47,366 nt of DNA from an uncultured Pseudomonadales bacterium (GTDB lineage: Bacteria > Patescibacteriota > Microgenomatia > UBA1400 > MFAQ01), in NCBI GenBank assembly GCA_964648275.1, contig CAZYOB010000006.1:1-47366 (forward strand), given 5' to 3'. The position numbers were made by a program, and so were the translations under genes. Below, piece after piece: positions 14,350-15,771 of this stretch (position 1 is its first letter; the number at the start of each line of letters is the position of its first letter). Below the pieces are notes generated by a model, which was not told the origin of the DNA, ran no database searches, and worked only from the letters and a program-made list of their open reading frames with translations.

Positions 14350-14787
14350 TCAGGAAGCATAGACACCCACCATCTCGGTTTTGTCCAAAACATGTCCTTG
14401 CATCTGCTTTTCCAGCTGATTTTTTTCTGCAATACCGGAAAGATTCAGGGCGGTGTCTAAAGCGTACAGCTTAAAAAGATATCGATGTTGACCTTCCGGT
14501 GGACACGGCCCTGTGTATTTTTGGTCTCCAAAGCTGTTTGTCCCCTGAACCGCATTAGGTGGAACACTGCCTTCATGTATCTCCGTCTGGTCTTTGGGAA
14601 TATTCCAAATCAACCAGTGGGTGAATATCGCATCCGGAGCATCGGGATCATCGATAATTAAGGACAAGGTCTTGGTGTTTGGCGGAATGTCCGTAATTGA
14701 AAGTGGCGGATTGATATTTTGACCAGCACAAGTGTAAATTTGAGGGATACTACCTCCGGGTTTAAATGCGGAACTGACAATATTCAT
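14350..14787 (-). CDS. YbhB/YbcL (PEBP/Raf kinase inhibitor-like) protein
   Basis: DDPDAP, FTHW, YTGPCPP, HRYLFKLYALD. Confidence 0.95.
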   Translation of the reverse strand: MNIVSSAFKPGGSIPQIYTCAGQNINPPLSITDIPPNTKTLSLIIDDPDAPDAIFTHWLIWNIPKDQTEIHEGSVPPNAVQGTNSFGDQKYTGPCPPEGQHRYLFKLYALDTALNLSGIAEKNQLEKQMQGHVLDKTEMVGVYAS

Positions 14788-14827
14788 AGTTTTGTGAAAC
14801 TTGTTACCATTTTAGTTTAGCAACAAC

Positions 14828-14856
14828 TTGACAGACCGGTCAATATTGTGTAATTT
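14828..14856 (+). promoter_or_regulatory. Sigma70-type promoter with palindrome over the -35
   Basis: TTGACA-17-TAATTT; TTGAC-agaccg-GTCAA inverted repeat at 14828-14843. Confidence 0.55.
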
Positions 14857-14860
14857 GTAA

Positions 14861-15099
14861 TTAATCCCACAAGAGGAGTGTTAAGATGCCTCCTTTAGCA
14901 ATTTCGCACTTTTTGATATGTGGCAGTGTAGCTTAGGGATGTTGTCCGATTCCAGACTAATATACTGCTCACCACGAAAACCAGGATACAAGTGACTGAC
15001 CGTACATGAGGCGCCGAGGATATCTGTCATGTAATGGTATATGGTGACGAGACTTAAGGAATAAGAGGTCCGATTGTCTTGAAAATATCGGGCCTCTTT
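14861..15099 (+). ncRNA. Candidate structured non-coding RNA, family unknown
   Basis: No long ORF; several abutting helices with G-U pairs on the plus strand; flanked by a promoter and a terminator. Confidence 0.5.
15063..15099 (+). terminator. Intrinsic terminator, possibly bidirectional
   Basis: AAGAGGTCCGAT-12 nt-ATCGGGCCTCTT hairpin. Confidence 0.75.
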
Positions 15100-15111
15100 A
15101 ATGCAAAAAAA

Positions 15112-15771
15112 TTAGTAGTTAATCTTTATGTATTTAGTTTCTCCTTGAGGGGTGATGTATTTGAGAGCCAGCTCCGGTTTGATGTCTTTATCTTGAATCC
15201 AAGTGGCTATATCGGTAACCCAGGTTTTTTGAGTCACCTCGGTCCCGAAGGCAATATCTATTTTTTTAGTCTTGCTCACTTCGGAGCGATAAGCATTTTG
15301 ATAGAAGCTTTTTCCATTAATCACGAGAACAAGTTGGGGAGCAGGATCCCAGCCTGTCTGTTGAATAGTGGAGGGGTGGATACTGGATCCTGATGGGTTA
15401 TTTTGATCTCCTATAAATTCAAAGACCGCATAGAAGAACGTCATTCCGGGAACTGCTTTAGATCCATCTGCCTCATCGGTATTGCCAAATTCCTTGACTT
15501 TAAAACTGGCTTTTCCGGAAAGGTTGATAAGAGAACTTTCAAGTTCTTCGAGAGACTGGTAATTTTCAGGTGAATTTTTATAGTCTCTCAACCGAAAATC
15601 GACAACGATTTCCTCGTCCAGATTCGCAGTTCGATCATAAGTCACAGTTTGAGACGCGGTTGATTTTCCCGTAGCTCCCGATCTGATATCAGCCTGTCCT
15701 GCAGGTAGACACCCCGATAGACCTAAACCAAACGCTACTAACAAGAAGGTAATGAACCACTTGTTATTCAT
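15112..15771 (-). CDS. Putative lipoprotein with Ig-like (DUF4352-like) domain
   Basis: Signal peptide with LSGC lipobox; TTGCAT-18-TAGAAT promoter 6 nt before the ATG. Confidence 0.65.
   Translation of the reverse strand: MNNKWFITFLLVAFGLGLSGCLPAGQADIRSGATGKSTASQTVTYDRTANLDEEIVVDFRLRDYKNSPENYQSLEELESSLINLSGKASFKVKEFGNTDEADGSKAVPGMTFFYAVFEFIGDQNNPSGSSIHPSTIQQTGWDPAPQLVLVINGKSFYQNAYRSEVSKTKKIDIAFGTEVTQKTWVTDIATWIQDKDIKPELALKYITPQGETKYIKINY

What the first reader, a model, noticed from the sequence alone, without database searches (positions are those of the whole stretch)
14828..15099. Orphan, highly structured plus-strand transcription unit: candidate novel ncRNA
A 324-bp gap in a very dense genome holds a promoter, ~200 nt with no long ORF, and a 12-bp terminator. 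Helices paired by eye abut one another. CCACA(14867-71)/TGTGG(14919-23) encloses AGGAG/CTCCT. GCAGTGTA(14923-30)/TATACTGC(14961-68) encloses TTAG/CTAA and GGA/TCC. TCACCA(14969-74)/TGGTGA(15042-47) encloses ACCG/TGGT and TACATGA(15003-09)/TCATGTA(15027-33). TTAATCC/GGAATAA may close the whole. Three wobble positions are G-U on the plus strand but A-C on the minus, so the RNA runs opposite to both neighbours. I see no RNase P, SRP, tmRNA or hammerhead core.
Basis: partly seen in the sequence, partly recalled or inferred. Interest (0 to 1): 0.75.

Follow-up and report, generated by a model that had tools for sequence, protein, structure and literature searches.

The report
New structured RNA gene in Collierbacteria
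The gap holds a free-standing gene for a roughly 240-base folded RNA that makes no protein, belongs to a previously undescribed RNA family found only in a few genera of tiny groundwater bacteria (Collierbacteria), and whose job is still unknown.

Summary
Window 14788-15111 is a 324-bp gap between two minus-strand genes. It carries a plus-strand unit: TTGACA-N17-TAATTT promoter, about 237 nt of RNA (about 14863-15099), and a 12-bp intrinsic terminator.

The single-sequence fold is only weakly better than shuffles (z -1.69). Comparative evidence is decisive. Full-length homologues occur once per genome in 21 of 44 genomes of the family (3 of 9 genera). None were found in 126 genomes of 18 sister families. 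All 17 true hits among 185,579 species genomes are Collierbacteria-type MAGs.

On 27 distinct sequences, 95.9% of cells pair, against 36-45% for slid controls. 35 of 51 pairs show compensatory changes. G-U outnumbers A-C 118 to 14, so the RNA is on the plus strand.

Architecture: seven helices, plus two candidate tertiary pairings (5' end with the P4 apex, and the P6 loop with the terminator loop).

There is no Rfam 15 match, no conserved ORF and no conserved neighbour. It is absent from the syntenic slot in some congeners, so it is accessory. It is not SRP, 6S, RNase P or tmRNA.

Verdict: a real, new, lineage-restricted ncRNA family. It most likely acts in trans as a folded RNA. Its function is unproven.

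The parts
14828..14833 (+). -35 hexamer TTGACA of the RNA gene's promoter
   Evidence: Read. Conserved at the same distance in 14 of 15 aligned homologues; one has CTGACA.
14851..14856 (+). -10 hexamer TAATTT, 17-bp spacer. The start of transcription is inferred at about 14863.
   Evidence: Only 3 of 6 positions match TATAAT, and the site was not listed by the scanner. The start site is inferred, not measured.
14858..15099 (+). Full covariance-model match. The RNA gene runs from about 14863 to 15099, about 237 nt.
   Evidence: R1 137.3 bits, E 1.2e-37. R2 146.7 bits.
14864..14868 (+). 5'-terminal AUCCC, candidate pseudoknot PK1 with GGGAU at 14936-14940
   Evidence: 5 pairs, 100% of cells paired, one G-C compensatory change and one G-U. 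Weak, because both sides are mostly invariant.
14872..14896 (+). P1 hairpin (14872-14878 with 14890-14896). It lacks the roughly 24-nt distal insert seen in most homologues.
   Evidence: (6 of 7 pairs with double changes).
14902..14906 (+). P2 5' strand UUUCG. It pairs with 15048-15052 and closes the multi-helix junction.
   Evidence: Read. The helix is supported. G001 has CUUCG/CGAGG, a compensatory change.
14907..14922 (+). P3 short hairpin (CAC 14907-14909 with GUG 14920-14922)
14923..14968 (+). P4 long hairpin (14923-14930 with 14961-14968, and 14931-14934 with 14955-14958). The apex carries the conserved AGCUUAGGGAU.
   Evidence: 7 of 8 basal pairs with double changes..
14969..14974 (+). 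P5 5' strand UCACCA, pairs with 15042-15047
   Evidence: 4 of 6 pairs with double changes..
14982..14998 (+). P6 hairpin (CAG 14982-14984 with CUG 14996-14998). Loop bases CAAG 14989-14992 are the candidate PK2 partner of CUUG 15078-15081.
15000..15037 (+). P7 hairpin (15000-15009 with 15027-15037, A15034 bulged). The loop carries the conserved GAUAUC.
   Evidence: (6 of 6 counted pairs with double changes).
15042..15052 (+). 3' strands of P5 (15042-15047) and P2 (15048-15052)
15063..15099 (+). Intrinsic terminator: 12-bp stem 15063-15074 with 15087-15098, 12-nt loop, then TTT. The loop is part of the fold through PK2. It probably also ends the convergent gene 15112-15771(-).
   Evidence: Weak reverse-strand model hits lie on the terminators of homologues.

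Best explanation
Window positions about 14863-15099 (plus strand) are a stand-alone gene for a structured non-coding RNA of about 237 nt, belonging to a previously undescribed family.

Shown:
- It has its own sigma-70-type promoter and an intrinsic terminator.
- It folds into seven covariation-supported helices: P1; then P2 closing a junction that holds P3, P4 and P5; with P5 enclosing P6 and P7.
- It occurs once per genome.
- It is confined to three genera of one Collierbacteria family.
- It is missing from the same chromosomal slot in some congeners, so it is accessory, not housekeeping.
- It has no conserved ORF and no conserved gene neighbour.

Supported but weak: two tertiary pairings. 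The 5' end pairs with the P4 apex, and the P6 loop pairs with the terminator loop. Together they would make a compact fold that includes the terminator hairpin.

Inferred:
- It acts in trans as a folded RNA.
- My preferred mechanism (about 0.35-0.4 given that the gene is real) is a protein-binding or RNP-scaffold regulatory RNA whose conserved junction and loop nucleotides are the binding surface.
- The partner and the process are unknown.
For: Homologues. One sits at 83% identity in a same-genus genome where the neighbouring PEBP gene is absent. Longer forms occur in other genera and share the promoter, sequence blocks and terminator.

Covariation.
- RNAalifold on 15 sequences gives 51 pairs, 29 with compensatory changes.
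- On 37 model-aligned copies (27 distinct), 95.9% of 1344 cells pair, against 36-45% for partners slid by 1-3 columns.
- 35 of 51 pairs have double changes.
- 0 of 500 shuffles reach any of the five measures.

Strand. 118 G-U cells against 14 A-C cells.

Distribution.
- 21 of 44 family genomes carry it, one full-length copy each: g1 3 of 4, g2 8 of 10, g6 10 of 13.
- 0 of 17 in six other genera.
- 0 of 126 genomes in 18 other families of the order.
- 17 true copies among 20 pattern matches in 185,579 species genomes, all Collierbacteria-type MAGs.

Accessory status. The aaRS-cupin slot that holds the RNA in g2 and g6 is empty in G047 (g6, 99% complete) and G011 (g9).

Not cis-acting. The next gene downstream is convergent in 18 of 21 genomes. 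Neighbours differ between g1 and g2/g6 and are not homologous.

Not a known family. No Rfam 15 match at E<=10.

Tertiary pairs. PK1 is 100% paired with one compensatory G-C. PK2 is 99.2% paired, and two of its pairs carry double changes.

The sequence is identical in independent assemblies.
Against: - No transcript evidence: no RNA run holding the stretch was listed. The start, the end and expression itself are inferred from sequence signals.
- The -10 hexamer in this window is poor (3 of 6). The single-sequence fold is only marginally better than shuffles (z -1.69).
- The alignment used for the counts was fitted to the model's structure, which leans towards it. The sequences are related, forming three to four clades, so cell counts overstate independent events.
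- PK1 and PK2 each rest on changes in one or two lineages.
- Nothing identifies a protein partner. CsrA, the one candidate tested, is not found in the family (0 of 44 over cut-off).
- The narrow, patchy distribution would also fit a mobile or defence-related RNA.
Confidence: 0.8

Rival explanations
1. A base-pairing small RNA. The nearly invariant 5' end (AAUCCCACA) would be a seed that pairs with target mRNAs, and the structured body would give stability.
For: The 5' segment is the most conserved stretch: TAATTAATCCCAC is identical in most copies. It is drawn single-stranded in the consensus. Promoter-plus-terminator sRNA genes with 5' seeds are common in bacteria (general knowledge).
Against: Part of the conserved block lies upstream of the inferred start and may be promoter DNA. 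The same bases can pair inside the RNA through PK1. A scan of the own genome for complementary sites gave only ordinary 10-11-bp matches, several of them inside coding motifs, and no standout target. A body of about 200 nt and seven helices with conserved loops is far more than a seed carrier needs.
Confidence: 0.2
2. A ribozyme or other catalytic or ligand-binding RNA with a new fold.
For: It has a complex multi-helix junction, two candidate pseudoknots, and many conserved unpaired nucleotides in junctions and loops. These traits are shared with large orphan RNAs suspected of such roles (general knowledge).
Against: No known ribozyme or aptamer model matches. No processing site, substrate or regulated gene is evident. 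Within so narrow a clade, conservation of loops may simply reflect little divergence time.
Confidence: 0.08
3. A cis-acting element: a riboswitch-like leader of a downstream gene, or an antisense or 3'-end regulator of the convergent exported-protein gene that shares its terminator.
For: In 3 of 21 genomes the next gene is a same-strand cupin gene (G004, G058 and, about 600 nt away, G048). In 15 of 21 genomes a convergent 217-221-aa exported protein gene ends within about 10-25 nt of the RNA's terminator. The terminator looks bidirectional (reverse-strand hits).
Against: In 18 of 21 genomes there is no same-strand gene immediately downstream. The convergent proteins of g1 and of g2/g6 are unrelated (VanW-like versus no Pfam). 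G003, G004 and G058 lack such a gene altogether. The RNA and the convergent ORFs do not overlap.
Confidence: 0.07
4. A highly diverged copy of a known housekeeping RNA (SRP RNA, 6S RNA, RNase P RNA, tmRNA), or a decayed or small protein-coding gene.
For: Neither SRP RNA (RF00169, RF01854) nor 6S RNA (RF00013) is detected anywhere in the own genome. A 16-codon ORF with an AGAGGAG box starts at 14887, and a 49-aa minus-strand ORF exists.
Against: - RNase P RNA and tmRNA are found elsewhere in the genome.
- The lineage has no Ffh or FtsY. PF02978 and PF00448 give nothing in the own genome, and 0 of 41 relatives are over cut-off. My motif scan of the six frames also finds nothing. An SRP RNA therefore has no partner.
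- The 5' and 3' ends do not pair into the closing stem that defines 6S RNA.
- The RNA is missing from many complete relatives.
- Both ORFs are broken or changed by non-triplet indels in G001 and have no counterpart in other genera.
Confidence: 0.03

Closest known systems
Orphan large structured bacterial ncRNAs such as the raiA motif RNA (PMC10861870, seen as search listing and abstract only), OLE and ROOL
   Same: It is a stand-alone, intricately folded RNA recognised by covariation. It has conserved unpaired nucleotides and candidate pseudoknots, is not tied to one neighbouring gene, and has no established biochemical function.
   Different: There is no sequence or structure match to any of them in Rfam 15. 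It is much narrower in distribution (three genera of one CPR family) and is dispensable within those genera.
Classical trans-acting sRNA genes (sigma-70 promoter, intrinsic terminator, 5' seed)
   Same: It has the same gene anatomy: own promoter, rho-independent terminator, one copy, an intergenic position, and a strongly conserved 5' end.
   Different: It is two to three times longer, with seven covarying helices and conserved loops. No target was identified.
6S RNA (RF00013) and bacterial SRP RNA (RF00169, RF01854)
   Same: It is of similar size to 6S RNA or large SRP RNA. Those two RNAs are the housekeeping RNAs not detected in this genome.
   Different: It has no closing stem between the 5' and 3' ends and no central bubble. 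It does not match either model. The lineage lacks Ffh and FtsY. The RNA is not universal even within its genus.

Membership tests
Any Rfam 15 family (4227 covariance models) | A score at or near the family's gathering threshold over the element | tested here: not met
   The gathering scan of the window finds only one tRNA. E<=10 scans of 14700-15200, of five homologous loci, and of L060:1480-1790 give only chance miRNA- or terminator-like hits far below threshold.
Independent sRNA/ncRNA gene | Own promoter and own terminator on the same strand, conserved in position across homologues | tested here: met
   TTGACA-N17-TAnnTT lies before the RNA and an intrinsic terminator lies after it in all 15 aligned copies. 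There is a 12-bp terminator stem in the window. Transcription itself was not observed.
Structured RNA (conserved secondary structure) | Base pairs maintained through compensatory changes beyond controls | tested here: met
   35 of 51 pairs have double changes. 95.9% of cells pair, against 36-45% for slid controls. 0 of 500 shuffles reach the observed values. 29 of 51 pairs show compensatory changes on a structure-blind MAFFT alignment.
6S RNA | 5' and 3' ends pair into a long closing stem flanking a central bubble; match to RF00013 | tested here: not met
   The consensus has a free 5' end and a 3' terminator, with no end-to-end stem. RF00013 finds nothing in the genome. That model rings in only 5 of 14 control genomes, so the model result alone is weak.
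Bacterial SRP RNA | Match to RF00169 or RF01854, and presence of its protein partner Ffh | tested here: not met
   No match in the own genome or in 5 relatives. No SRP_SPB or SRP54 domain was found. Absence of SRP in another CPR group is published (PMC4508563, passages read).
Riboswitch or cis-regulatory leader | A regulated gene immediately downstream on the same strand in most representatives | tested here: not met
   The next gene downstream is convergent in 18 of 21 genomes.
CsrB/RsmZ-type protein sponge | Many GGA loops and presence of CsrA | tested here: not met
   Only one or two AGGGAU motifs per RNA. The CsrA domain is over cut-off in 0 of 44 family genomes.
Guide or scaffold RNAs of mobile-element or defence proteins (omega RNA, bridge RNA, retron or DRT ncRNA) | Encoded next to, or overlapping, the partner protein gene | tested here: not met
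   The neighbours are an aaRS, a VanW-like protein, a cupin, PEBP, an OB-fold protein and a lipoprotein. None is a nuclease, recombinase or RT. A partner encoded elsewhere in the genome was not searched for.

The most novel reading that the evidence does not exclude
The RNA could be the core of a lineage-specific ribonucleoprotein or a ribozyme with a new pseudoknotted fold. Some Collierbacteria, whose genomes are stripped of many standard systems (SRP among them), would have acquired it to carry out or regulate a process for which no protein is encoded. It would then be a new functional class of bacterial RNA rather than one more regulatory sRNA.
Probability: 0.12. Interest if true: 0.85.

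Novelty: new member of a known kind. Interest (0 to 1): 0.58.

Why it matters
CPR bacteria make up a large share of bacterial diversity, yet almost nothing is known of their non-coding RNAs beyond the universal ones.

This is a well-supported, complex-folded RNA family specific to one CPR lineage. It is kept under purifying selection in genomes of under 1 Mb, where little is dispensable, yet it is lost in some close relatives. That combination points to a specialised function, possibly related to ecology or to the host.

It supplies a covariance model, a defined architecture and presence/absence contrasts. These make a function search by phylogenetic profiling, metatranscriptomics or biochemistry directly possible.

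It is not, on present evidence, a new principle. Many orphan structured RNAs are known, and its range is narrow.

Tried and rejected
- Expression: no RNA holder was listed for window:14300-15800, so nothing can be said about expression.
- Earlier scan notes: no look-alike stretch.
- Phage origin: the specific pattern gave 0 matches in viral contigs. A looser pattern gave 117 or more chance matches. 80 were fetched, and none matched the model beyond a 12.8-bit fragment.
- Further pseudoknots: a scan of all column pairs gave only phylogenetic noise and no stacked new pairs. PK1 and PK2 were found by eye afterwards.
- Target search for the 5' end in the own genome: no standout site. rRNA genes are not in the assembly, so complementarity to rRNA could not be tested there.
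- More distant homologues: a second model built from 27 distinct sequences found no further full-length copies in the family. Its weak 11-19-bit hits are short and look like terminators.
- A conserved protein partner next door: the 219-aa lipoprotein of g1 is not related to the VanW-like protein of g2/g6 (BLASTP E 4.5, hhalign probability 0.6%). Its Atlas neighbours are DUF4352/DUF5027-like at scores of 0.86-0.89, which are leads only.
- CsrA sponge idea: rejected.
- The AGAGGAG...ATG 16-codon ORF: after codon 9 it is frameshifted in G001 and absent in other genera.
- Literature: searches pairing CPR, Microgenomates or Collierbacteria with structured or non-coding RNA found no description of this RNA. 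Only listings and abstracts were seen.

Full report
**What is in the window**

Positions 14788-15111 form a 324-bp gap. It lies between the start of a minus-strand PEBP-family gene (14350-14787; Pfam PBP, E 6e-41) and the stop of a minus-strand 219-aa lipoprotein-like gene (15112-15771; no Pfam hit).

On the plus strand the gap reads as follows:
- TTGACA at 14828-14833, a 17-bp spacer, then TAATTT at 14851-14856.
- About 200 nt without any ORF of 30 codons or more.
- A 12-bp hairpin (15063-15074 with 15087-15098) followed by TTT.

The -10 hexamer matches the consensus at only 3 of 6 positions, and the promoter scanner did not list it. The scanner did list a minus-strand promoter-like site at 14843-14814 for the PEBP gene.

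A 49-aa minus-strand ORF (14881-15030) and a 16-codon plus-strand ORF (ATG at 14887, behind AGAGGAG) exist. Neither survives comparison, as shown below.

The same stretch is present, letter for letter, in contigs assembled from other samples.

**Is it more than chance?**

Folding 14862-15102 alone gives -66.6 kcal/mol, z = -1.69, with 6 of 200 shuffles folding as well. The minus strand gives z = -0.83. On its own that is not convincing. The case rests on relatives.

**Homologues**

A DNA search of 40 related genomes found one clear homologue in the same genus (G001, 83% identity over window 14848-15100). There the PEBP gene is absent, so the element is not that gene's leader.

The search also found four short matches to the first 40 nt in other genera. 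Reading those loci showed full-length, somewhat longer versions (about 262-267 nt). They have the same promoter spacing, the same blocks and a terminator.

The G001 copy differs from the window by indels of 1, 2, 1 and 1 nt. These break both small ORFs.

**Structure**

RNAalifold on a MAFFT alignment of 15 copies predicts 51 pairs, 29 of them with compensatory changes.

A covariance model (R1) then recovered 37 copies, 27 of them distinct. These came from family genomes and from 16 metagenome contigs found with a two-block pattern.

On that alignment:
- 95.9% of 1344 cells form standard pairs, against 36-45% when partners are slid by 1-3 columns.
- 35 of 51 pairs show changes on both sides.
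- None of 500 shuffles reaches the observed values.

Two caveats apply. The alignment is fitted to the model, and the sequences fall into three or four clades. Even so, the structure-blind result agrees.

G-U cells outnumber A-C cells 118 to 14. So the plus strand is the RNA strand, as the promoter and terminator also say.

The window's helices:

| Element | Window coordinates |
|---|---|
| P1 | 14872-78 / 14890-96 |
| P2 | 14902-06 / 15048-52 |
| P3 | 14907-09 / 14920-22 |
| P4 | 14923-30 / 14961-68, plus 14931-34 / 14955-58 |
| P5 | 14969-74 / 15042-47 |
| P6 | 14982-84 / 14996-98 |
| P7 | 15000-09 / 15027-37 |
| Terminator | 15063-74 / 15087-98 |

CCACA/TGTGG and TTAATCC/GGAATAA are not conserved.

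The window, G001 and two g6 genomes lack a roughly 24-nt distal extension of P1. That extension itself covaries in the others.

**Candidate tertiary pairs**

Two sets of conserved loop bases are complementary and change together.

- PK2. The P6 loop GUAAG matches the terminator loop CUUAC in g2, g6 and G003. In G001 these become ACAAGU and ACUUGU, with two pairs changed on both sides. In the window they become CAAG and CUUG. Overall 99.2% of cells pair.
- PK1. The 5'-terminal AUCCC matches GGGAU at the P4 apex. In G053 these are GUCCU and GGGAC, and in G003 GUCCC and GGGAU. Overall 100% of cells pair.

Each rests on one or two lineages. For PK1 a local hairpin is an alternative. I rate both as plausible, not shown.

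**Distribution**

- Full-length copies, one per genome, occur in 21 of 44 genomes of the family: g1 3 of 4 (not G002), g2 8 of 10, g6 10 of 13.
- No copies were found in 17 genomes of six other genera. A second model gave the same picture.
- In a sample of the order, 0 of 126 genomes from 18 other families had a match. That search used strict filters and scored few candidates.
- A two-block pattern scan of 185,579 species genomes gave 20 matches. 17 are true by the model, and all are MAGs labelled Collierbacteria, Woesebacteria or Microgenomates, or evidently mislabelled. The other 3 are chance.
- Earlier notes of this scan call the genome Candidatus Collierbacteria.
- No copy was found in viral contigs.

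**Context**

In g2 and g6 the RNA gene lies in a slot between a divergent class-I aminoacyl-tRNA synthetase gene and a cupin gene. There is usually a convergent VanW-like gene in between.

That slot is empty in G047 (g6, 99% complete) and G011 (g9).

In g1 the neighbours are different and unrelated.

The next gene downstream is convergent in 18 of 21 genomes. So the RNA is a free-standing, accessory gene, not a leader.

**What it is not**

- It matches no Rfam 15 family.
- RNase P RNA and tmRNA are elsewhere in the genome.
- SRP RNA and 6S RNA are not detected.
- The lineage also lacks Ffh and FtsY. This agrees with a published report for Parcubacteria (PMC4508563; abstract and one passage read).
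- The RNA lacks the end-to-end stem of 6S RNA.
- CsrA is not found in the family.
- Literature searches found no description of this RNA (listings only).

**How it most likely works**

Shown: it is an independent gene with a conserved complex fold, under purifying selection, in single copy, and dispensable.

Inferred: it acts in trans. The many conserved unpaired nucleotides in junctions and loops, and a compact fold that draws in the terminator hairpin, fit a protein-binding or RNP role best. I put that at about 0.35-0.4.

The alternatives are:
- a seed-type base-pairing sRNA, about 0.2;
- a ribozyme or ligand-binding RNA, about 0.08;
- a cis or antisense role, about 0.07;
- a diverged known RNA or a coding gene, about 0.03.

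No partner, target or transcript has been seen, and no RNA run was listed.

**Verdict**

This is a real and new RNA family of narrow range. It is a new member of the known kind "orphan structured bacterial ncRNA". Interest is moderate to good: the structural evidence is solid and the RNA comes from a poorly known lineage, but its function is unknown and its distribution is limited.

Noticed in passing
Whole genome G000 and relatives (not in the window): No SRP system was found. There is no SRP RNA (RF00169, RF01854), no SRP_SPB domain, and no SRP54-type GTPase over cut-off in the own genome, in 0 of 41 relatives, or in a 151-genome sample of the phylum, where only partial P-loop matches of 26 bits or less appear. 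SRP_SPB is found in 0 of 5 complete genomes of other families. My motif scan of the own genome's six frames is also blank. Absence of ffh and ffs is published for Parcubacteria (PMC4508563). Here it also appears to hold for this Microgenomates lineage.
   Followed up: partly
window 14814-14856: The RNA promoter's -35 (TTGACA, 14828-33) and a minus-strand promoter-like site for the PEBP gene (TTGACC 14843-38, TG-TAAACT) sit back to back inside a palindrome, TTGAC-AGACCG-GTCAA. G001 lacks the PEBP gene, and it also lacks the second half of the palindrome.
   Followed up: no
window 14350-14787 (-): The PEBP-family gene is present here but absent at the same site in the same-genus genome G001. There the OB-fold (OB_ChsH2_C) gene abuts the RNA gene, so this is a single-gene indel.
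   Followed up: partly
window 15112-15771 (-): A 219-aa protein with a lipoprotein-type signal (LSGC). It has no Pfam hit and is 74% identical to its G001 counterpart. Its ESM Atlas neighbours are DUF4352/DUF5027-like clusters at scores of 0.86-0.89, which are leads only.
   Followed up: partly
L047/L060 (G004), L037/L052 (G008), L076 (G011), L078 (G047): The slot between a class-I aaRS gene and a small cupin gene is variable in Collierbacteria. It may be empty, hold the RNA alone, or hold the RNA plus a convergent VanW-like exported-protein gene.
   Followed up: partly
window 14872-14937: In this genus the 3' strand of P1 reads CCUCCUUU, identical to a canonical anti-Shine-Dalgarno end. The 5' strand, AGAGGAG, precedes an AUG. 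This look-alike of a ribosome-binding site is not conserved in other genera.
   Followed up: partly
L222, L223, L224, L232, L233 (genome contigs): Five MAG records titled 'uncultured Pseudomonadales bacterium' carry full-length copies of this Collierbacteria RNA (267-299 bits). Their taxonomic label is probably wrong.
   Followed up: no
G000, all contigs: No 16S or 23S rRNA signature words were found in the 32-contig assembly, so the rRNA operon is probably unassembled. The RNase P RNA (C1:947-1249, 303 nt) scores only 106.8 bits against a cut-off of 100.
   Followed up: no
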